The notes under the pieces are model-generated. The model ran no database searches. It saw only the letters and a list, made by a program, of their open reading frames with translations, and was not told where the DNA came from. A stretch of 22,346 nt of DNA from a virus. Its lineage: Duplodnaviria; Heunggongvirae; Uroviricota; Caudoviricetes. Every line of letters begins with the position of its first letter. The stretch's first letter is position 1. Positions 9,680 to 17,952 of this stretch are shown here, one piece after another. The position numbers were made by a program, and so were the translations under genes. The stretch lies in IMG/VR virus record IMGVR_UViG_3300045988_116769. The stretch is one strand, 5' to 3'.

Positions 9680-9852
9680 TGTCAGGAGTCCTGAATAGTG
9701 ATTAGAGGAGTCACATGTCGGCATCAGTTTCCCGACGATGCGCATCCTCCGCCATCAGTCCCGGATGGCTTATCACTGACACAACAGCACCTTAGCGAAT
9801 CGCGGGGCGCGACTCAGTAGCCTTGCCGTGTATTCATCACGGCGAGGTATTC
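9680..9852. promoter_or_regulatory. Divergent late-promoter region between O (minus) and P (plus)
   Basis: In P2 this intergenic region carries the divergent Ogr-activated late promoters. A near-consensus activator dyad TGG-N12-ACA lies at 9766-9783, about 70 nt upstream of the P start. Positional call. Confidence 0.4.
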
Positions 9853-11625
9853 ATGACCATCACCACAGACACCACTCTTTTACACGACCCGCGTCGTCAG
9901 GCGGCGCTGCTGTACTGGCAGGGATTTTCCGTGCCGCAGATTGCCGCCATGTTGCAGATGAAACGCCCGACGGTGCAGAGCTGGAAACAGCGCGACGGCT
10001 GGGACAGCGTTGCCCCCATCAGCCGTGTCGAAATGAGTCTGGAAGCGCGGCTGACCCAGCTCATCATCAAACCGCAGAAAACCGGCGGTGACTTCAAGGA
10101 AATTGACCTGCTCGGACGCCAGATTGAACGACTGGCACGGGTCAACCGTTACAGTGAGACCGGCAACGAGGCAGACCTTAATCCGAACGTCGCTAACCGC
10201 AACAAAGGCGGGCGTCGCAAACCGAAAAAGAATTTTTTCAGTGACGAGGCCATCGAAAAGCTGGAGCAGATTTTCTTTGAGCAGTCTTTCGAATATCAGT
10301 TGCACTGGTATCGCGCCGGGCTTGAGCACCGCATCCGCGATATCCTGAAATCCCGCCAGATTGGCGCGACGTTTTATTTTTCCCGCGAGGCGCTGCTGCG
10401 CGCCCTGAAAACCGGTCATAACCAGATTTTTCTGTCGGCCAGTAAAACGCAGGCGTATGTGTTCCGCGAATACATCATCGCCTTTGCCCGGCTGGTTGAC
10501 GTTGACCTGACCGGTGACCCGATTGTCCTGGGCAATAACGGCGCAAAACTGATTTTTCTCGGCACCAACTCCAACACCGCGCAGAGCCATAACGGCGACC
10601 TGTACGTCGACGAGATTTTCTGGATCCCGAATTTTCAGGTACTGCGTAAGGTGGCATCAGGTATGGCCTCACAGAGTCACCTGCGTTCGACCTATTTCTC
10701 CACCCCGTCCACGCTGGCGCACGACGCCTACCCGTTCTGGTCGGGTGAACTGTTCAACCGGGGACGCGCCAGCGCCGCCGAACGCGTGGAAATCGACGTC
10801 AGTCATAACGCCCTTGCCGGTGGGCTTCTCTGTGCAGACGGCCAGTGGCGGCAGATTGTCACCATTGAGGACGCGCTGAAAGGCGGCTGCACGCTGTTCG
10901 ACATTGAGCAGCTCAAACGCGAAAACAGCGCCGACGATTTTAAAAACCTGTTCATGTGTGAATTTGTTGACGACAAGGCGTCAGTGTTCCCGTTCGAGGA
11001 GCTGCAACGCTGCATGGTCGACACGCTGGAAGAATGGGAAGACTACGCGCCGTTTGCCGCAAATCCGTTCGGCTCCCGCCCGGTATGGATTGGTTACGAC
11101 CCGTCACACCGTGGCGACAGTGCCGGATGCGTGGTACTGGCACCGCCGGTGGTGGCCGGTGGCAAATTCAGAATACTTGAGCGTCACCAGTGGAAAGGCA
11201 TGGACTTTGCCACCCAGGCTGAATCCATCCGCAAACTCACCGAAAAATACAACGTCGAATACATCGGAATTGATGCCACCGGCCTCGGTGTCGGCGTGTT
11301 TCAGCTCGTTCGCTCGTTCTATCCCGCCGCGCGCGATATCCGCTACACGCCGGAAATGAAAACCGCAATGGTGCTCAAGGCAAAAGACGTTATTCGCCGT
11401 GGCTGTCTGGAATATGACGTCAGCGCCACCGACATCACCAGCTCGTTTATGGCTATCCGCAAGACCATGACCAGCAGCGGACGCAGCGCCACCTATGAGG
11501 CCAGCCGCAGCGAGGAAGCCAGCCATGCCGACCTCGCCTGGGCGACCATGCACGCCCTGTTAAATGAGCCACTCACCGCCGGTATCAGCACCCCGCTGAC
11601 ATCCACCATTCTGGAGTTTTACTGA
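9853..11625 (+). CDS. P: Terminase ATPase (large) subunit P
   Basis: Start MTITTDTTLLHDPRRQAALLYWQGF at 9853 with GAGGT Shine-Dalgarno 5 nt upstream gives 590 aa as in P2 gpP; the track ORF starts 10 codons earlier. Confidence 0.9.
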   Translation: MTITTDTTLLHDPRRQAALLYWQGFSVPQIAAMLQMKRPTVQSWKQRDGWDSVAPISRVEMSLEARLTQLIIKPQKTGGDFKEIDLLGRQIERLARVNRYSETGNEADLNPNVANRNKGGRRKPKKNFFSDEAIEKLEQIFFEQSFEYQLHWYRAGLEHRIRDILKSRQIGATFYFSREALLRALKTGHNQIFLSASKTQAYVFREYIIAFARLVDVDLTGDPIVLGNNGAKLIFLGTNSNTAQSHNGDLYVDEIFWIPNFQVLRKVASGMASQSHLRSTYFSTPSTLAHDAYPFWSGELFNRGRASAAERVEIDVSHNALAGGLLCADGQWRQIVTIEDALKGGCTLFDIEQLKRENSADDFKNLFMCEFVDDKASVFPFEELQRCMVDTLEEWEDYAPFAANPFGSRPVWIGYDPSHRGDSAGCVVLAPPVVAGGKFRILERHQWKGMDFATQAESIRKLTEKYNVEYIGIDATGLGVGVFQLVRSFYPAARDIRYTPEMKTAMVLKAKDVIRRGCLEYDVSATDITSSFMAIRKTMTSSGRSATYEASRSEEASHADLAWATMHALLNEPLTAGISTPLTSTILEFY

Positions 11626-12659
11626 TGAGCAAGAAAAAAGGGAAAACACCGCAACCTGCGGCAAAAAAAATGACCCCCAGCGCACCGAAAATGGAGGCAT
11701 TCACCTTTGGTGAGCCGGTGCCGGTACTCGACCGCCGTGACATTCTGGATTACGTCGAGTGCATCAGTAACGGCAGATGGTATGAGCCACCGGTCAGCTT
11801 TACCGGTCTGGCAAAAAGCCTGCGTGCTGCCGTGCATCACAGCTCACCGATTTACGTTAAACGCAATATTCTGGCCTCGACATTTATCCCGCATCCGTGG
11901 CTTTCCCAGCAGGATTTCAGCCGCTTTGTGCTGGATTTTCTGGTTTTCGGTAATGCGTTTCTGGAAAAGCGTTACAGCACCACCGGTAAGGTCATCAGAC
12001 TGGAAACCTCACCGGCAAAATATACCCGCCGTGGCGTGGAGGAGGATGTTTACTGGTGGGTGCCGTCCTTCAACGAGCCGACAGCCTTCACGCCCGGCTC
12101 CGTGTTTCACCTGCTGGAGCCGGATATTAATCAGGAGTTGTACGGCCTGCCGGAATATCTCAGCGCCCTTAATTCTGCCTGGCTGAATGAGTCGGCCACG
12201 CTGTTCCGCCGAAAGTATTACGAAAATGGCGCTCATGCCGGATACATCATGTACGTCACCGATGCCGTGCAGGATCGCAACGATATCGAAATGCTTCGCG
12301 AAAACATGGTTAAGTCGAAAGGCCGCAACAACTTTAAAAATCTGTTTCTCTATGCCCCGCAGGGGAAAGCTGACGGCATTAAAATTATCCCGCTCAGTGA
12401 AGTGGCAACGAAGGACGATTTTTTTAATATCAAAAAAGCCAGCGCCGCTGACCTGCTGGACGCGCACCGCATCCCCTTTCAGTTGATGGGCGGCAAGCCG
12501 GAGAACGTCGGGTCACTGGGAGATATTGAGAAAGTGGCAAAGGTCTTTGTCCGCAATGAGCTTATCCCGCTACAGGACAGGATCCGCGAGATAAACGGCT
12601 GGCTCGGTCAGGAGGTCATCCGCTTTAAAAACTACTCACTGGACACTGACAACGGCTGA
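11625..12659 (+). CDS. Q: Portal (capsid vertex) protein Q
   Basis: 344-aa ORF, same length as P2 gpQ; start overlaps the P stop (ATGA); ends 168 nt before cos as in P2. Confidence 0.9.
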   Translation: MSKKKGKTPQPAAKKMTPSAPKMEAFTFGEPVPVLDRRDILDYVECISNGRWYEPPVSFTGLAKSLRAAVHHSSPIYVKRNILASTFIPHPWLSQQDFSRFVLDFLVFGNAFLEKRYSTTGKVIRLETSPAKYTRRGVEEDVYWWVPSFNEPTAFTPGSVFHLLEPDINQELYGLPEYLSALNSAWLNESATLFRRKYYENGAHAGYIMYVTDAVQDRNDIEMLRENMVKSKGRNNFKNLFLYAPQGKADGIKIIPLSEVATKDDFFNIKKASAADLLDAHRIPFQLMGGKPENVGSLGDIEKVAKVFVRNELIPLQDRIREINGWLGQEVIRFKNYSLDTDNG

Positions 12660-12664
12660 ACATC

Positions 12665-12686
12665 GCCGCCTGCGGGCGGCTTTTTT
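12665..12686 (+). terminator. Rho-independent terminator of the P-Q operon
   Basis: GCCGCC-tgcg-GGCGGC hairpin followed by TTTTTT, 5 nt after the Q stop codon. Confidence 0.75.
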
Positions 12687-12826
12687 ACATCCCGTCATCA
12701 CGCCCTCACACACTCACCACCGCACAAAACAGCCCGCAGGCAAACCAACGCCCAACGGACAGACTAAGCGCCGTCACGACGCGCTGAGACGCTGAAAAAA
12801 TAAAATCAGCACCACCGCCAGCGCGC

Positions 12827-12845
12827 AGTGCTTTCCCCGCCTCGC
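12827..12845. other. cos site (19-nt cohesive end of P2/186)
   Basis: GTGCTTTCCCCGCCTCGCC is the reverse complement of the cohesive end GGCGAGGCGGGGAAAGCAC as I recall it. Adjacent bases (reverse complement of about 12720-12845) also match my recollection of the P2 left-end sequence. Confidence 0.8.
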
Positions 12846-13121
12846 CCGCCCGCTTCATGGGGCGGTTTTAATGCAGTTGCATGAGTACGTTGAATCCTCG
12901 CTAGCTGTGACGTAAAGCAATGAGGACGCATAACTTTGACACATGCAAAACCATGCACCTGATACATGCATAGTTATTACTTTGTAAAAACATAAAAAAA
13001 GGAAATCCCATGAACAAAAATCAAACTATTAATAAAAATTTTTATATCTCTTAGAACAAAAGATTTTGCTTGAACAAAGTAAACTTCTGAGGTAGATCTT
13101 TATCGTTTAGCAAAATAATTC

Positions 13122-13175
13122 ATGTTAAACAGCTTAAATATTTATACAATATCATTGGCAATGATGAGGTTTTAA
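13122..13175 (+). promoter_or_regulatory. Putative promoter/operator and RBS of the cargo gene
   Basis: -10-like TACAAT at 13145-13150; 15-bp palindrome ATCATTG-G-CAATGAT at 13151-13165; GAGGT Shine-Dalgarno at 13166-13170, 5 nt before the ATG. AT-rich context, -35 not clear. Confidence 0.35.
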
Positions 13176-15395
13176 ATGGAACTTAAATTAAAGAATATAA
13201 CCAGCTATAAGAAAGATAGCTTCACGACTCTTAATCTCTCAAAAAAAATTAATATACTTTATGGTCACAACGGTTGTGGAAAATCAACCATATCTAATTA
13301 TTTCTATAATCCAAATAACACGGACTACAAAGAATGCGAATGTCCTTTCATAGATACTTTTCGCCTATTGGTTTATAATACTAAGTTTGTTGAGGATAAT
13401 TTTTATAATGCAAAAGAGCAAAAAGGAGTATTCACTTTAAGTAAGGAAAATGCTGACATTGAAAAAGAATTGTTGGAAAAAGAAGCTATAAGACAAGACC
13501 TACTTACAAAATACAAAGATAAAAAAAACGTTATTGAGCGTTTAATTAAAGATAAAAACAATAAAGAAAATGAATATATTGATTTAATATGGAATAAAGC
13601 AGAACCTTTTAGATCATCTGACTTAAAGAACTTGATGAAAGGTCAGTTAGGAAGCAAGAGATCATTTTATGAGCAAGTTAAAAAAGCCCCTCAAACCACT
13701 GACGTTAACATCGAGTCACTTGCTCAAGAATATAGTATTCTTTTAAAGAACAAAGATAAATTCACTGCATCAATTACACCTTTAGAAAAATATATCATTT
13801 CAGAAAAAGATAAAGAATCTTTATCCACTCCGATTATAGACTCAAGTAATAGCTATTTGTCAGAAACAATTAAACAACTTCAAAACCTTGACTGGGTGAA
13901 AAAAGGGAAGGAATTATATTTAAATGGCACATGTTGCCCATTCTGCCAAGAAGACACTATTAAAGACAAATTTTTAGAAGCAATTGAATCTATCTTTGAT
14001 GATAGCTACTCCAAGAAAGTTGACCAAATACGCATTATCAGATCGTCTTATGAATCCGCTACCATAGATAATTTAAGAAAAATAAAACAAGAGATTTCAT
14101 CTTGTGAATTAATCACCTCAAAAGAAAAAGATATAACATCATCTCATATAGCGTTATTAGAGGAAATAGCAAACAAAAACTTAAAATTGATGTTAGATAA
14201 AATCAATAACCCATCTATATCTATTATTTTGGAATCCAATAGCGACCTTGAAGCAAAGGTAGTTGATAATATAGCAGAGTACAACAATAGAATTAAAGAA
14301 ATAAATATTAAAGTCAAACAATTTAAGGATAGTGAAAAGTCTATACGTTACAAAATATGGGGAGCAATAAGAGAATTATGCAACGCTGAGTTTGAAGCTT
14401 TCTCAAAATATGAGAATGACTATAAAATCATTTATGAACAATATCAACTTGAATTAAATACCATAAAAGAACAAGGAGATAACAATAGCAAAAAGATCAA
14501 AGAGCTACGCGATCAAATATCTAACATTGATGCAACCATAGATTCTATAAATCAACGTCTAAAATTATTAGGAATTTATGGTTTTAGCATAAAAAAACAC
14601 ACTGAGAGCAATGATAAATATATTATATCACGTTCTGAAAACACAACAGATAAAGATGTATACAGATCTCTTAGCGAGGGTGAAAAAACTTTAATTACCT
14701 TTCTCTACTTTCTGGAATGCTGTAAAGGTAAGACAGATAAGAATGATACGGATATGCGAGATGTATTTATCGTTATTGATGATCCAATATCCAGCCTCTC
14801 TCAAAATTATGTGTACGATATTGCTTCAATAATTCACCATGAAATAATCAACAATAACAAAGCAGTAAAGAAAACATTAATACTCACACATAACCTTTAT
14901 TTCTTTCATGAACTTATCAAATTAGCTCCTAGAAGCAAAGAAGATAGAACATTCAAGCGTGATTATTATCTTGGACGAGTAACAAAAAATGAATATAGCA
15001 TAATTACAGAAATAGAGAAAAAGAGCATTCAGAATGAATACCAGTCCCTATGGCAAGTATTAAAAGATGCGAAGGATGGAAGGGTAAATAAAGTCATAAT
15101 ACCTAACATCATGAGAAATATACTGGAATACTACTTCGCATTTGTTCATAGAACGGATGCATTACAGACAGAGTTAAATAAACTTGCTAGCGATGATAAG
15201 AATAATGATTTTAGAGCATTTTATAGATACATTAATAGAGGTTCCCATTCAGATGCAGTTAATATCACAGACATGGGAGATATATCTCCAGAGAAATATA
15301 TGGAGCAACTAAAAACCATTTTTCGTATGACTGGTGATGAAAAACATTATTTGAAAATGATGGACGAAGAGGAAGAGGAAACCGTTACCGCTTAG
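13176..15395 (+). CDS. Cargo gene: 739-aa ABC/SMC-like ATPase of the AAA_13 type with a coiled-coil insert carrying CxxC and a C-terminal domain; candidate RloC/PrrC-like anti-phage protein
   Basis: Walker A GHNGCGKST (13263-13289); C253-C254-P-F-C257 (13932-13946) in a Lys/Glu-rich coiled-coil-like stretch; signature LSEGEK (14670-14687); Walker B VFIVIDD with D-loop PISSLS (14763-14801); H-loop LILTHN; C-terminal R647-x3-E651 and His 658/691. About 30% GC against roughly 55% in flanking phage genes. Convergent with gene A. Confidence 0.75.
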   Translation: MELKLKNITSYKKDSFTTLNLSKKINILYGHNGCGKSTISNYFYNPNNTDYKECECPFIDTFRLLVYNTKFVEDNFYNAKEQKGVFTLSKENADIEKELLEKEAIRQDLLTKYKDKKNVIERLIKDKNNKENEYIDLIWNKAEPFRSSDLKNLMKGQLGSKRSFYEQVKKAPQTTDVNIESLAQEYSILLKNKDKFTASITPLEKYIISEKDKESLSTPIIDSSNSYLSETIKQLQNLDWVKKGKELYLNGTCCPFCQEDTIKDKFLEAIESIFDDSYSKKVDQIRIIRSSYESATIDNLRKIKQEISSCELITSKEKDITSSHIALLEEIANKNLKLMLDKINNPSISIILESNSDLEAKVVDNIAEYNNRIKEINIKVKQFKDSEKSIRYKIWGAIRELCNAEFEAFSKYENDYKIIYEQYQLELNTIKEQGDNNSKKIKELRDQISNIDATIDSINQRLKLLGIYGFSIKKHTESNDKYIISRSENTTDKDVYRSLSEGEKTLITFLYFLECCKGKTDKNDTDMRDVFIVIDDPISSLSQNYVYDIASIIHHEIINNNKAVKKTLILTHNLYFFHELIKLAPRSKEDRTFKRDYYLGRVTKNEYSIITEIEKKSIQNEYQSLWQVLKDAKDGRVNKVIIPNIMRNILEYYFAFVHRTDALQTELNKLASDDKNNDFRAFYRYINRGSHSDAVNITDMGDISPEKYMEQLKTIFRMTGDEKHYLKMMDEEEEETVTA

Positions 15396-15642
15396 GCCGC
15401 ATATCATCGGGTTGGGTAAGAACGACGGTGTTCACACACCGTCTCCCACTTACCGAAACGATAGCGATTGTACTGACGTACTTTCACTAACTTTAACATG
15501 AGATTATCTCCATGCCAGCACTATTGTTGCCAATAGCAGCCTTTACACCCTTTGTATAAAGCTAATACCAAGAGCAATGCAAGGATACCCCAAGCGGTAA
15601 CTGGCGTGGATTCTAGAGCAGCCTAACTAAAAAATCAAAGCA

Positions 15643-17952
15643 TTAATTAAATCCCGGCCACTCATCATTTACCGGATACCTGAAGTTTACCCCCTCATAA
15701 TTTACGGTTGCCCCACGCGCCAGCGCCTCAAGCTCCCATCGCTGAGGCCTGATACCGTTCTGACCAAGGTCAACGCGGATACGGGGGATTTGCATTCGTT
15801 CCGACCGGGTCAGTCTGGCCGAAGGCGCAATTTCATGCGGTTTTAACGGGCTTCCGTTTCTTTGCTGACGATTTGGTGTTCTCAGTTCGTGTTTTAATGC
15901 CCCCCTGAGCGCCCTCACGACATCCGGGTCATTCCATTCGATAACACCGTCATCGACCAGATTAAGCACGGCTGCGGCATGTTCAGAAGGTGTGGGAGCC
16001 GTTAACGAAGTATCACTGCCGGTGAACTTTCCACAGTTATTGACAGGACTCCGAGGCGCGGCGATGCCGCTTTTTAAAGTCAAAGGCTCAACGACCGGAA
16101 CTTTCGGCACAATGCGCCAGTCCGTCGTTCTGGTGATATGAATATGACGCGCGCCGAGATGCGGCGCGTAAATGCCGACCACTCTCCCGACTTCTTCCTC
16201 GTACTCGTTAACGTCATCCGACGGGCTACGGGCGACTCTGACAGTCTGGCAATCACGCGGAACATTTGCCCCACCCTGCGCGCTGATATACAACGCAAAA
16301 TCACCACTGTCTGCGGCGGCACGTGCAGCCTCAACGCGTTCGTCAAACTCATCAGCAATGCTGACGCCGCGAGGCAATTTGCGTAGTTCACGGTAAGCCC
16401 CCATTGTCGGCAGGCCAACCGTTTTAAATTGCGGGATGCGCCACGTTGACGCCCATGCGGTAACAGCCGCAGCAGTATCTTTCAGCGGCCTGCCGGTATC
16501 GTTATCGAGCTGACCATCCAGTGCATAGCCATCGATGTTTTTTGAGATGTATTTCGCGATATACCCCGCAGCACCGCCCCGGTTAAGATGTTTTGCCTGA
16601 AAACGGTTTCGCGCGGCTCCTCTTTCGTCGCCATCCTCTTTGAGCGCATAGCGACGCATGATTTCGATAATCTGGTTACGCTGGCGTGGATTACAAAAAA
16701 GCATCATATGCCAGTGCGGCGTTCCGTCGTGGTGTGGCTCGACGACTCGCAAACCGTAGACCTGTAAATCATTATCCTTGAATGCCGTGCGCATCAGGCT
16801 CCAGATACGGCAGAGATAACGCTGCGCATCCTTTGGATTAAATGCCTCATCGTTCCAGCCGTGATTAAGCTGAACGGTTTTACTTTCGCCTTTTCTGACC
16901 TGACGAGTCGGGTGATACTTTGACGGCGCGGTCAGCGTGATAAACATCCCCACATCACCCTCTGCGGCGGCGTAACGCTCAATACCGGCAATGGTGTTCA
17001 TCAGCTCCATCCGGCGAATTTCAGGATTAGAAATACTGCCCATCACCTTACTGATAAGGTCGATGCGCTCGCCGGTTTCCCTGTTTTCAAGGTCACACGA
17101 TTTAAGAAATTCCAGATTTGCCTGGCGGCGCGCACGCACATCACGAATGGCGTGTTTACTGGCATAAGGAGAACGGTCTTTATTGACCTCCCCGACAGCT
17201 ATCAGTAACGCTTCATGCCAGCGCATACGCTGGCCTTTAAGCTGATGAGTCCACCACTCATCGTTAAACAGACGGGCAATGGCAGAATATGCCTGCCTCG
17301 TGGTCATCTGCCCTTTACGGTATTTTTTCCAGTAGAGAGGGGAAATATTGAAAGCACGTGCAGCGCCAGCAACATGACCATAGAGGTGAGCCTGCGCCTC
17401 ATCCGTAAACAGCGATTCTTTTTCGCCATGCGCATCCACCCAGGCATCGCTGAGTTCCTCATACATCATGAAAAGCTGCGATGAGATACGGGCAGCAAAC
17501 TTTTTCAGCTCCTTGTCATTCATTCCCGGCAGGCGCGCATAGTGGTCACGCTCTGCCAGAAACAGTAACGACGCGTCGGTGTTCATTTCATGGCGCTGAT
17601 TCACACGCTCAATGCGCGGCCATAAACGACGCTGAAAAGTGGATGTGAGGAAATAAAACCCGTGTACCGGGCTTTTATTGCGCCGGATGTAGTCATAGCG
17701 TGAAGTAAACAGCGAGCGCAAAAAGTAAGGCAGGCGGTTAATCGTGGATAAAACACCTTGCACCTGACGCATCTCGTCACGTGTAAGGGGTCTTTCGCGC
17801 CCGACGGCCTCGCGTGGCGCGTTCCATGCATAAGCACCGGTAAACGCCTTACCGGTGCCTGCAGCAAATGCTGAAGGAGGGACAAAACGCCCGGAGGCTT
17901 TAACGGCCATATGAGCCAAAAGCCTCTGAACAACGCCTGCTGAGTTGCTCAA
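15643..17952 (-). CDS. A: Replication initiation protein A (rolling-circle nickase)
   Basis: 769-aa ORF containing MAVKASGRFVPPSAFAAGTGKAFTGAYAWNAPREAVGRERPLTRDEMRQ, matching P2 gpA as I recall it. True start may be the internal Met at 17910 (755 aa). Confidence 0.9.
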   Translation of the reverse strand: MSNSAGVVQRLLAHMAVKASGRFVPPSAFAAGTGKAFTGAYAWNAPREAVGRERPLTRDEMRQVQGVLSTINRLPYFLRSLFTSRYDYIRRNKSPVHGFYFLTSTFQRRLWPRIERVNQRHEMNTDASLLFLAERDHYARLPGMNDKELKKFAARISSQLFMMYEELSDAWVDAHGEKESLFTDEAQAHLYGHVAGAARAFNISPLYWKKYRKGQMTTRQAYSAIARLFNDEWWTHQLKGQRMRWHEALLIAVGEVNKDRSPYASKHAIRDVRARRQANLEFLKSCDLENRETGERIDLISKVMGSISNPEIRRMELMNTIAGIERYAAAEGDVGMFITLTAPSKYHPTRQVRKGESKTVQLNHGWNDEAFNPKDAQRYLCRIWSLMRTAFKDNDLQVYGLRVVEPHHDGTPHWHMMLFCNPRQRNQIIEIMRRYALKEDGDERGAARNRFQAKHLNRGGAAGYIAKYISKNIDGYALDGQLDNDTGRPLKDTAAAVTAWASTWRIPQFKTVGLPTMGAYRELRKLPRGVSIADEFDERVEAARAAADSGDFALYISAQGGANVPRDCQTVRVARSPSDDVNEYEEEVGRVVGIYAPHLGARHIHITRTTDWRIVPKVPVVEPLTLKSGIAAPRSPVNNCGKFTGSDTSLTAPTPSEHAAAVLNLVDDGVIEWNDPDVVRALRGALKHELRTPNRQQRNGSPLKPHEIAPSARLTRSERMQIPRIRVDLGQNGIRPQRWELEALARGATVNYEGVNFRYPVNDEWPGFN

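What the first reader, a model, noticed from the sequence alone, without database searches (positions are those of the whole stretch)
13176..15395. Single 739-aa cargo gene: ABC/SMC-type ATPase with coiled-coil CxxC insert and a C-terminal effector-like domain, a candidate RloC/PrrC-like anti-phage system
Seen in sequence: Walker A GHNGCGKST (aa 30-38); a roughly 400-aa Lys/Glu-rich insert with CCPFC (aa 253-257); signature-like LSEGEK (aa 499-504); Walker B VFIVIDD plus D-loop PISSLS (aa 530-541); H-loop LILTHN (aa 568-573); then about 165 aa with R647-NIL-E651 and His 658/691. A second Cys pair (C54, C56 in ECECPF) shares the CPF context and could form a 4-Cys zinc site with C254/C257. Established knowledge: this split-head layout with a D-loop of the SSL type is typical of AAA_13 ATPases, which include anticodon nuclease PrrC and the Rad50-like zinc-hook tRNase RloC; their catalytic triad is Arg-x3-Glu plus a downstream His. 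Inference: a stand-alone ATP-regulated suicide tRNase or other abortive-infection effector carried by the prophage against competing phages. There is no Toprim-like motif, so it is not an Old homologue, and no partner gene is adjacent.
Basis: partly seen in the sequence, partly recalled or inferred. Interest (0 to 1): 0.85.

Follow-up and report, generated by a model that had tools for sequence, protein, structure and literature searches.

The report
RloC-like tRNase gene on P2 prophage
An E. coli P2-type prophage carries, in its known defence-gene slot, a Rad50-like ATPase fused to a PrrC/RloC-type RNase domain; this family is already catalogued there as 'RloC-like', so the gene is ordinary, but an unannotated, conserved 31-codon gene sits right beside it.

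Summary
It is a full-length AAA_13 protein (Pfam E 2e-102) and matches PADLOC candidate PDC-S06 (E 4e-253); its C-terminal half matches the PrrC model (E 2.5e-14). In 33 homologues down to 18% identity these residues are invariant: Walker A K36, the hook C254-x-F256-C257, LSEGE 499-503, D535/D536, H572, and R647-x3-E651-x39-S690-H691. That meets the published definition of RloC. The gene is a 30% GC island between cos/portal and gpA of a P2-like prophage, the old/tin defence hotspot. This is not new: Rousset et al. 2022 (Table S5B) list 'AAA_13, RloC-like' as the fifth commonest P2-hotspot system (420 loci). I found no experimental test of it. The most likely mechanism, inferred by homology, is a DNA-activated ATPase switch that unleashes an anticodon nuclease and aborts infection. 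Three side claims fail: C56 and H658 are not conserved, and 'no partner gene' is doubtful. A 31-aa ORF (15404-15499, -) lies 8 nt downstream, convergent. It has a conserved Shine-Dalgarno sequence and pN/pS of about 0.23. It accompanies the big gene from E. coli to Vibrio and Pseudomonas, in and outside P2.

The parts
13176..15395 (+). RloC-like gene, 739 aa (AAA_13 / PADLOC PDC-S06): ABC ATPase head split by a helical CxxC insert, plus a C-terminal PrrC/RloC-type RNase-like domain
13166..13169 (+). Shine-Dalgarno-like GAGG, 6 nt before the ATG of the big gene
   Evidence: read from the sequence
13263..13289 (+). Walker A GHNGCGKST (aa 30-38); G30, N32, G35, K36 and T38 invariant in 33 homologues
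13443..14570 (+). Lys/Glu-rich helical insert (aa 90-465) splitting the ATPase head; long helices 90-141, 276-309, 315-344, 356-381, 383-401 and 403-447
13935..13946 (+). Hook motif C254-P-F-C257 in the loop 249-263 between helices; C254, F256 and C257 invariant, P255 in 30/33, preceded by invariant W240 and G244
14670..14684 (+). ABC signature LSEGE (aa 499-503), invariant
14766..14798 (+). Walker B plus D-loop FIVIDDPISSL (aa 531-541); D535, D536, P537 and S540 invariant
14877..14894 (+). H-loop LILTHN (aa 568-573); H572 invariant
15012..15392 (+). C-terminal all-helical nuclease-like domain (aa 613-739), covered by the PADLOC PrrC model match (aa 456-734)
15114..15128 (+). R647-N-I-L-E651, the Arg-x3-Glu of the PrrC/RloC triad; N644, R647 and E651 invariant
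15243..15248 (+). S690-H691, the triad His preceded by Ser, 39 residues after E651; invariant in 33/33
   Evidence: definition in PMC2610378
15404..15499 (-). Unannotated 31-aa ORF MLKLVKVRQYNRYRFGKWETVCEHRRSYPTR, convergent with the big gene and 8 nt from its stop; candidate partner gene
15506..15511 (-). Shine-Dalgarno GGAGAT, 6 nt before the ATG of the 31-aa ORF; a GGAGA core is conserved in all 13 versions
15396..15642 (.). Spacer between the big gene and gpA. It aligns at 82-89% nucleotide identity in loci where the big protein is 54-70% identical. It occurs in only 69 complete E. coli genomes, so it travels with the cargo and not with P2
12973..13175 (+). Low-GC upstream part of the cassette, past the end of similarity to other P2-like phages. 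It holds one promoter-like site at 13126-13155, though such sites are no more frequent here than chance
12828..12846 (-). Exact match to a 19-nt sequence that I recall as the P2 cos cohesive end (GGCGAGGCGGGGAAAGCAC; the identity as cos rests on memory, not a tool result); marks the left edge of the hotspot
11625..12659 (+). Portal protein gpQ, left flank of the hotspot
15643..17952 (-). Replication endonuclease gpA, right flank of the hotspot

Best explanation
The gene encodes a member of the RloC family: a Rad50-like ABC ATPase whose head is split by a helical arm with a CxxC zinc hook, fused to a PrrC/RloC-type (HEPN-class) anticodon-nuclease domain. It sits in the cos-proximal defence hotspot of a P2-like prophage, the site of old and tin in P2. 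Shown here: the family membership, intact and invariant ATPase, hook and nuclease-triad residues, and the prophage-hotspot location. Inferred by homology with Geobacillus and Acinetobacter RloC: the nuclease is silent in the resting dimer, and binding of DNA ends or breaks (here, replicating or damaged DNA during infection by another phage) turns on ATP hydrolysis. That hydrolysis releases the C-terminal RNase, which cuts tRNA anticodon loops. Translation then stops and the infected lysogen does not yield phage (abortive infection). A conserved 31-aa basic micro-protein encoded convergently 8 nt downstream may modulate this switch.
For: Family assignment: Pfam AAA_13 full length, E 2e-102. PADLOC PDC-S06 E 4e-253, and PrrC model E 2.5e-14 over aa 456-734. 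Motifs: 33 homologues at 18-100% identity keep K36, C254/F256/C257, LSEGE, D535/D536, H572, N644, R647, E651 and S690-H691 invariant. The Glu-His spacing is 34-42 across the set and 39 here, against the published 36-52. Structure: AlphaFold2 model pLDDT 82 with a helical insert and the CPFC in an inter-helix loop. The best solved-structure matches are Rad50 heads, then SMC, Lamassu LmuB, PtuA and AriA. Location: P2-like prophage, portal / cargo / gpA. Homologues 46-70% identical sit at the same site in other E. coli, APEC O1, Yersinia, Serratia fonticola and the isolated Enterobacter phage ENT4. Family context: restriction-modification genes are the commonest neighbours of 37 distant homologues. 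One example is hsdM-hsdS-[35% identical homologue]-hsdR in Helicobacter, the context that gave rloC its name. Literature: RloC's triad, zinc hook, DNA-dependent ATPase switch and activation by DNA breaks. P2 Old at the same locus is reported as a DNA-activated abortive tRNase.
Confidence: 0.65

Rival explanations
1. Two-gene system. The RloC-like nuclease of this gammaproteobacterial clade needs the adjacent 31-aa basic micro-protein. The peptide would act as a silencer or antitoxin lost on infection, as an adaptor, or as a decoy for a phage factor, playing the role that the R-M complex plays for PrrC. This modifies the best explanation rather than excluding it.
For: The ORF is present next to the big gene in all 13 distinct related loci checked (plus 8 places), from E. 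coli to Vibrio (big protein 39% identical) and Pseudomonas (36%). It is there both inside and outside P2 prophages, and in the opposite orientation in Pseudomonas. A GGAGA Shine-Dalgarno core is conserved in all. Variable sites by codon position are 12/10/22, mean pS 0.54 against pN 0.12. The 247-bp stretch occurs in 69 complete E. coli genomes, against 2172 with the P2 flanks. In 8 of 8 places where the peptide was called as a gene, it lies 13 nt from a convergent AAA_13 gene.
Against: Linkage is the only evidence; no interaction or phenotype is known. Related peptides (PHROG 21154, function unknown) occur in other phages with no AAA_13 gene nearby. These are Ralstonia P2-like phages next to an XRE-HTH/M78 peptidase pair, a Stx1 phage between cI and N, and a faecal phage near serine recombinases. 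More distant RloC-like loci lack the peptide, and GkaRloC is regulated without any partner.
Confidence: 0.3
2. Same architecture but a different effector chemistry. The C-terminal domain would cut mRNA, rRNA or DNA, or act only as a nucleic-acid-binding module, so the protein would be an Abi ATPase but not an anticodon nuclease.
For: No fold match confirms a HEPN RNase. HEPN-class domains include mRNases and non-catalytic binders. Even among characterised RloCs the tRNA targets differ.
Against: The Arg-x3-Glu...Ser-His triad shown by mutagenesis to be essential for RloC and PrrC tRNase activity is invariant here. The PrrC profile aligns through this domain.
Confidence: 0.12
3. Not defence. The protein would be a Rad50/SbcC-like DNA-end-processing or prophage-maintenance (addiction) factor that benefits the P2-like phage's own replication or stability.
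For: The head fold is closest to Rad50. About a quarter of P2 hotspots carry non-defence cargo such as partition systems.
Against: There is no Mre11/SbcD-type partner. A nuclease-triad domain absent from Rad50 is invariant. Family members sit in R-M loci and variable islands. The gene is sporadic: this allele is in 32 of 5426 complete E. coli genomes, and the AAA_13 system is in 420 of 18150 P2 loci. It is replaced by other cargo in related prophages, which is not expected of a replication function.
Confidence: 0.05
4. Conjugative-transfer or transporter ATPase mis-assigned to a prophage.
For: Only weak P-loop-level hits to ABC_tran and other NTPases.
Against: No transfer or membrane genes are nearby. 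The flanks are portal and gpA. The full-length match is to AAA_13 / PDC-S06.
Confidence: 0.01

Closest known systems
RloC (Geobacillus kaustophilus, Acinetobacter baylyi; Davidov & Kaufmann 2008; Klaiman et al. 2012, 2014)
   Same: Size class (658-897 aa). ABC ATPase head split by a helical insert with a central CxxC. C-terminal Arg-x3-Glu-x36-52-(Ser)His triad. Usually no cis-linked silencer. Some family members lie inside R-M loci.
   Different: A divergent subfamily: 18-23% identity to the longer Geobacillus-like relatives in my set. It is prophage-borne at the P2 hotspot. The first arm of the insert is not one long helix in the model. In this clade it is accompanied by a conserved 31-aa ORF. 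No activity has been measured.
'AAA_13, RloC-like' system #5 of the P2 hotspot (Rousset et al. 2022, Table S5B) and PADLOC candidate PDC-S06
   Same: Same family at the same prophage site. The Rousset representative is 48% identical over its printed 399 residues. Proteins WP_001583661 and WP_021547827 from that table flank the same downstream element. The best PDC-S06 model matches at E 4e-253.
   Different: Both resources treat it as a single-gene system and neither reports a test. The 31-aa ORF is not part of either description.
PrrC anticodon nuclease (E. coli CT196)
   Same: ABC-type NTPase plus C-terminal nuclease with the Arg-Glu-His triad. The PrrC profile matches aa 456-734.
   Different: PrrC is 341-416 aa, lacks the coiled-coil/zinc-hook insert and is always embedded in a type Ic R-M locus that silences it. 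Here there is an insert and no R-M locus.
P2 Old (ABC ATPase + Toprim)
   Same: Same prophage locus. An ABC ATPase sensor is coupled to a nuclease. Old is reported as a DNA-activated abortive tRNase (2026 preprint).
   Different: Old's effector is a Toprim domain. Here there is no Toprim hit and the effector is a PrrC/RloC-type helical domain. The ATPase has a hook-bearing insert.
Rad50 / SbcC
   Same: Best structural match for the head. A CPxC-type hook motif sits in a helical insert.
   Different: No Mre11/SbcD partner. The arm is much shorter. There is an extra C-terminal nuclease-like domain.
APECO1_4465-type prophage ABC-HEPN proteins (Anantharaman et al. 2013)
   Same: ABC ATPase plus C-terminal PrrC/RloC-class HEPN domain on prophages, proposed to exclude other phages. 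APEC O1 carries a 65% identical homologue at the same P2 site.
   Different: I could not verify that this APEC O1 gene is APECO1_4465 itself, because old locus tags are not shown.

Membership tests
RloC (sensu Davidov & Kaufmann 2008) | ABC ATPase motifs: Walker A, signature, Walker B, D-loop, H-loop | tested here: met
   All are present and invariant in 33 homologues. Full-length AAA_13 match. Rad50-like head fold.
RloC (sensu Davidov & Kaufmann 2008) | Largely alpha-helical insert splitting the ATPase domain, interrupted by a central loop with CX2C | tested here: met
   aa 90-465 are predicted helical, with C254-P-F-C257 in the loop 249-263. Both Cys are invariant. Whether the arms form an antiparallel coiled coil with an apical hook could not be checked, because no model coordinates were available.
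RloC (sensu Davidov & Kaufmann 2008) | C-proximal Arg-X3-Glu-X36-52-His, Ser often before His | tested here: met
   R647-x3-E651-x39-S690-H691, invariant in 33/33. Definition read.
RloC (sensu Davidov & Kaufmann 2008) | Length 658-897 aa, about twice that of PrrC | tested here: met
   739 aa.
RloC (sensu Davidov & Kaufmann 2008) | Detectable homology to PrrC | tested here: met
   PADLOC PrrC model E 2.5e-14, aa 456-734 against profile positions 108-355 of 372.
RloC (sensu Davidov & Kaufmann 2008) | Direct sequence similarity to the characterised GkaRloC or AbaRloC proteins | not tested
   Their sequences were not obtainable with the tools, and the genome scan returned no Geobacillus or A. baylyi locus. 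Indirect evidence only: homologue P0087 has its triad at R689/E693/H734, against GkaRloC R692/E696/H737.
RloC (sensu Davidov & Kaufmann 2008) | Wobble-nucleotide-excising tRNase activity, zinc response, DNA-dependent ATPase switch | not testable with these tools
   These are biochemical properties, known only for GkaRloC and AbaRloC.
RloC (name: restriction-linked ORF) | Some members inserted in type I/III R-M loci | tested here: met
   Met at family level: R-M domains are the commonest neighbours of 37 homologues, for example Helicobacter hsdM-hsdS-homologue-hsdR. This locus itself has no R-M genes, as is true of most RloCs.
PrrC | 341-416 aa, no coiled-coil/zinc-hook insert | tested here: not met
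   739 aa with an insert of about 375 aa.
PrrC | Always linked to a silencing type Ic R-M locus | tested here: not met
   The flanks are the P2 portal and gpA.
HEPN superfamily (PrrC/RloC/APECO1_4465 clade, Anantharaman 2013) | All-alpha domain with an Rx4-6H motif | tested here: inconclusive
OLD family | C-terminal Toprim nuclease domain | tested here: not met
   No Toprim family among the Pfam hits up to E 1.
Rad50/SbcC | Works with an Mre11/SbcD nuclease partner; very long coiled coil; no C-terminal RNase domain | tested here: not met
   No such neighbour. There is an extra triad-bearing domain. Only the head fold is shared.
PADLOC PDC-S06 (candidate single-gene defence system) | Match to a PDC-S06 HMM | tested here: met
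   PDLC04886 E 4.4e-253 over aa 2-732. The same HMM set also covers the distant RloC-like homologues.

The most novel reading that the evidence does not exclude
In the gammaproteobacterial clade that includes this gene, the RloC-like nuclease may not be a stand-alone protein with a purely internal switch. It may be a two-gene module whose second part is an overlooked 31-34 aa basic micro-protein (V-R-Q-Y-x-R-[YF]-R-x-G-x-x-E-x-V-x-x-H-x-R-S-x-P) encoded just past its stop codon. The peptide would silence, license or tune the nuclease. The same micro-protein family (PHROG 21154) may serve as a portable regulator beside other phage accessory genes.
Probability: 0.3. Interest if true: 0.55.

Novelty: already known. 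Interest (0 to 1): 0.28.

Why it matters
The gene is one more instance of a common prophage-borne defence candidate. It confirms that P2 hotspots spread RloC-type suicide nucleases among enterobacteria. RloC itself has never, in the papers I could read, been shown directly to block a phage. An E. coli P2-borne version with its native flanks would therefore be a convenient system for that test. The practical gain from this re-examination is the conserved 31-codon gene. Anyone cloning the 'single-gene' system by its annotated coordinates might or might not include it. If it regulates the nuclease, that choice would decide toxicity and phenotype.

Tried and rejected
- NCBIfam gave nothing for the big protein or for the peptide.
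- Sequence searches of the PDB, with the single protein and with profiles, found only P-loop-level matches to Rad50 and AriA. They found no relative of the C-terminal domain.
- Fold searches with the C-terminal model were inconclusive. The afdb50 library was unavailable, so structural similarity to the PrrC AlphaFold model could not be tested.
- The genome scan did not return Geobacillus or A. baylyi loci, so there was no direct comparison with the characterised RloCs.
- My first guess for the position of APECO1_4465 in APEC O1 (860-909 kb) was wrong. The P2-like prophage was found later at 921-930 kb, but the old locus tag could not be confirmed.
- Promoter-like sites in the region are no more frequent than in shuffled sequence (13 against 12.2), so no promoter is claimed. 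No terminator-like site lies between the two convergent genes.
- Rfam found no RNA family in 12600-15700; the best hit was E 0.66. This argues against a known sRNA explaining the conserved spacer.
- The intramolecular 4-Cys zinc site was rejected on conservation.
- The conjugation-ATPase reading was rejected on context.
- The conserved hydrophobic reading frame upstream of the peptide is not claimed as a gene. It lacks a start codon in the window, is broken by stop codons in most versions, and is absent in Xenorhabdus, Vibrio and Pseudomonas.
Full report
**Observation.**
The ORF is real. It runs 13176..15395 on the + strand, starts with ATG and encodes 739 aa. GAGG lies 6 nt before the start.
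- Walker A GHNGCGKST, aa 30-38
- ECECPF, aa 53-58
- CCPFC, aa 253-257
- LSEGEK, aa 499-504
- VFIVIDD / PISSLS, aa 530-542
- LILTHN, aa 568-573
- R647-NIL-E651, H658 and H691

The stretch aa 90-465 is Lys/Glu-rich (13.6% and 10.4%). The gene is a compositional island: 30.3% GC against 53.4% for the rest of the window.

**Surroundings.**
The window is a P2-like prophage. PHROG matches identify terminase large subunit (9823-11625), portal (11625-12659), replication endonuclease gpA (15643-17952, minus strand), Cox, a repressor and integrase. An exact match to a 19-nt sequence that I recall as the P2 cos cohesive end lies at 12828-12846 (the identity of this sequence rests on my memory, not on a tool result). 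The gene therefore occupies the cos-proximal slot between portal and gpA. In P2 that slot holds old and tin, and it is a documented hotspot of anti-phage cargo (Rousset 2022; Vassallo 2022). Similarity to other P2-like phages ends near 12972. In 5426 complete E. coli genomes, 2172 have the flanks but only 32 have this cargo, annotated 'AAA family ATPase'.

**What the protein is.**
- Pfam AAA_13 matches aa 16-716 with E 2e-102.
- PADLOC gives PDC-S06, a candidate single-gene defence system, at E 4e-253. The PrrC model matches aa 456-734 at E 2.5e-14.
- PHROG 2801 matches but has no known function. NCBIfam gives nothing.
- A word-indexed search returned 88 homologues. An exhaustive profile-free search found 880 clusters (at 50% identity) with E <= 1e-30.

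In an alignment of 33 homologues spanning 18-100% identity, the invariant residues are exactly the functional ones:
- G30, N32, G35, K36, T38 (Walker A)
- W240, G244, C254, F256, C257 (hook region)
- L499-S-E-G-E503 (signature)
- D535, D536, P537, S540 (Walker B and D-loop)
- H572 (H-loop)
- N644, R647, E651, S690, H691 (nuclease triad region)

H658 is kept in only 14/33, C56 in 9/33 and C54 in 26/33.

**Structure.**
An AlphaFold2 model built on that alignment has mean pLDDT 82. It shows:
- an N-terminal head lobe (strands within aa 2-67);
- a helical insert, with long helices 90-141 and 264-447 and shorter ones between;
- the CPFC in the loop 249-263;
- a C-terminal head lobe (aa 471-612);
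- a helical C-terminal domain (aa 621-728).

**Membership in RloC.**
Davidov & Kaufmann (PMC2610378) define RloC as distant PrrC homologues with these features:
- 658-897 aa;
- an ABC ATPase split by a largely helical insert with a central CX2C;
- a C-proximal Arg-X3-Glu-X36-52-His motif, often with Ser before His.

Mutating R692, E696 or H737 of the Geobacillus protein abolishes tRNase activity and toxicity. Here the motif is R647-x3-E651-x39-S690-H691. Across my homologue set the Glu-His spacing is 34-42. All sequence-level criteria are met.

The family context fits too. Among the neighbours of 37 distant homologues, restriction-modification domains are the commonest Pfam families: ResIII 7, Methylase_S 6, N6_Mtase 4, HsdM_N 4 and HSDR_N 4. 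Phage integrases account for 4. In Helicobacter burdigaliensis a 35% identical homologue lies between hsdS and hsdR, the 'restriction-linked ORF' setting that gave rloC its name.

It is not a PrrC, because it is too long, has the insert and has no linked R-M locus. It is not an Old homologue, because there is no Toprim hit.

**Same gene at the same prophage site elsewhere.**
Homologues 46-67% identical sit between portal and gpA in the following:
- another E. coli prophage;
- APEC O1, 65% identical;
- two further E. coli genomes;
- Yersinia and Serratia fonticola;
- the isolated Enterobacter phage ENT4, 64% identical.

Relatives also occur outside P2 in Serratia marcescens, Klebsiella michiganensis, Xenorhabdus and Vibrio islands.

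**What was already known.**
The printed representative is 48% identical to this protein over 399 residues. Accessions from their table are the proteins I found at this site.
- The system does not appear among the systems they cloned.
- Anantharaman et al. 2013 placed the PrrC/RloC/APECO1_4465 C-domains in the HEPN superfamily. They proposed that prophage-borne ABC-HEPN proteins exclude other phages.
- A 2025 preprint mentions an E. coli AAA ATPase called only by PADLOC, as PDC-S06.

I found no paper testing it.

**How it most likely works.**
Shown here: the protein is intact, all catalytic and hook residues are conserved under strong constraint, and it sits in a defence hotspot.

Inferred from the Geobacillus and Acinetobacter work:
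- The nuclease is silent in the free dimer.
- DNA, especially ends or breaks, stimulates the ATPase.
- ATP hydrolysis unleashes the nuclease.
- Zinc-hook mutations short-circuit the switch.
- The enzyme cuts the anticodon loop and can excise the wobble nucleotide, which frustrates phage tRNA repair.

For a prophage, this would abort infection by a competing phage whose replication or nucleases generate DNA ends. P2 Old, the classical occupant of this very locus, is reported in a 2026 preprint to be a DNA-activated abortive tRNase built on an ABC ATPase. That makes the functional analogy at the locus close. The tRNA target, the trigger and the oligomeric state are unknown for this protein.

**The unexpected part.**
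The 247 bp between the gene's stop and gpA's stop align at 82-89% nucleotide identity in loci where the big protein is only 54-70% identical. On the minus strand, 8 nt from the big gene's stop, lies a 31-aa ORF at 15404..15499: MLKLVKVRQYNRYRFGKWETVCEHRRSYPTR. GGAGAT sits 6 nt before its ATG.

Evidence that it travels with the big gene:
- The same ORF follows the big gene in every related locus I checked. These are seven further P2-hotspot loci, plus the non-P2 loci of S. marcescens, K. michiganensis and Xenorhabdus.
- It also follows it in Vibrio, where the big protein is 39% identical, and in Pseudomonas (36%). In Pseudomonas it lies on the same strand as the big gene.
- The 247-bp stretch occurs in only 69 complete E. 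coli genomes, so it travels with the cargo and not with P2.
- In 8 of 8 places inspected where the peptide was called as a gene, it lies 13 nt from a convergent AAA_13 gene.

Evidence that it is translated:
- Thirteen distinct nucleotide versions keep a GGAGA Shine-Dalgarno core.
- Variable sites fall 12/10/22 by codon position.
- Mean pS is 0.54 against pN 0.12.

Annotation status:
- It is unannotated in RefSeq E. coli.
- It was called as a 31-aa hypothetical protein in some assemblies (P0297, P0298).
- It matches PHROG 21154, function unknown, at E about 1e-9. It has no Pfam, NCBIfam or Rfam match.

Limits on the partner reading:
- More distant RloC-like loci lack it.
- Related peptides occur in other phages without an AAA_13 neighbour: Ralstonia P2-like phages after an XRE-HTH/M78 peptidase pair, a Stx1 phage between cI and N, and a faecal phage near serine recombinases.

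I therefore regard it as a real small gene that is part of this cassette. Whether it regulates the nuclease is open. I put that at about 0.3.

**Verdict.**
However, the thing is an already catalogued, untested RloC-like cargo of the P2 defence hotspot. The claims about C54/C56 and H658 are not supported, and 'single gene' is doubtful. Overall interest is low to modest. The only element a specialist might not expect is the conserved micro-ORF.

Noticed in passing
window 15404-15499 (-), with Shine-Dalgarno at 15506-15511: Unannotated 31-aa basic ORF, convergent with the RloC-like gene and 8 nt from its stop. It is conserved with the big gene from E. coli to Vibrio and Pseudomonas (pN/pS about 0.23). 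It matches PHROG 21154, function unknown.
   Followed up: yes
window 15512-15600 (-): A hydrophobic reading frame (...VTAWGILALLLVLALYKGCKGCYWQQ*) lies in frame with and just upstream of the 31-aa ORF, separated from it by a TAG. The frame is continuous, giving 57-69 aa, in L001 and in Yersinia L091. It is broken in most other versions and absent in Xenorhabdus, Vibrio and Pseudomonas. It may be a decayed N-terminal extension, or the promoter and leader of the small gene.
   Followed up: partly
window 12828-12846 (-): Exact match to a 19-nt sequence that I recall as the P2 cos cohesive end, GGCGAGGCGGGGAAAGCAC (recollection, not checked against a reference). It lies between a terminator-like hairpin after the portal gene (12665-12680) and the cargo.
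   Followed up: yes
L087 (E. coli APEC O1, NC_008563.1 925932-928148): APEC O1 carries a 65% identical, 738-aa homologue (WP_000423308.1) at the same portal/gpA site. It is probably the 'APECO1_4465' ABC-HEPN prototype of Anantharaman et al. 2013, but the old locus tag could not be checked.
   Followed up: partly
Searches (H12; cluster of P0046): One complete genome annotates the gene as two 'AAA family ATPase' pieces. A related cluster of 1244 members, mostly Salmonella, is represented by a 546-aa protein, and most listed members are shorter than the full ~735 aa (one listed member is full length). This may reflect frequent inactivation or assembly breaks.
   Followed up: no
L093 1641-2357 (Serratia fonticola P2-like prophage): An HNH-domain gene shares the hotspot with the RloC-like gene, upstream of it.
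   Followed up: no
L002-L004 8735-9289 (Vibrio splendidus): A gene with a weak DUF4145 hit lies downstream of the RloC-like gene and micro-ORF in three Vibrio contigs whose upstream flanks differ. DUF4145 also appears as P2-hotspot cargo in Rousset's table.
   Followed up: no
L103 3956-4090; L104 2185-2295; L105 2770-2850: Relatives of the micro-protein occur in other phage accessory regions without an AAA_13 gene. These are Stx1 phage SH2026 gp19 (44 aa) between cI and N, Ralstonia P2-like phages (36 aa) after an XRE-HTH/M78 peptidase pair, and a faecal phage scaffold near serine recombinases.
   Followed up: partly
L041 1848-11097: A distant homologue (29% identical) is embedded between an SNF2-type helicase plus DUF4391 and an N6_N4 methylase plus a YhcG nuclease, an R-M-like island.
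   Followed up: no
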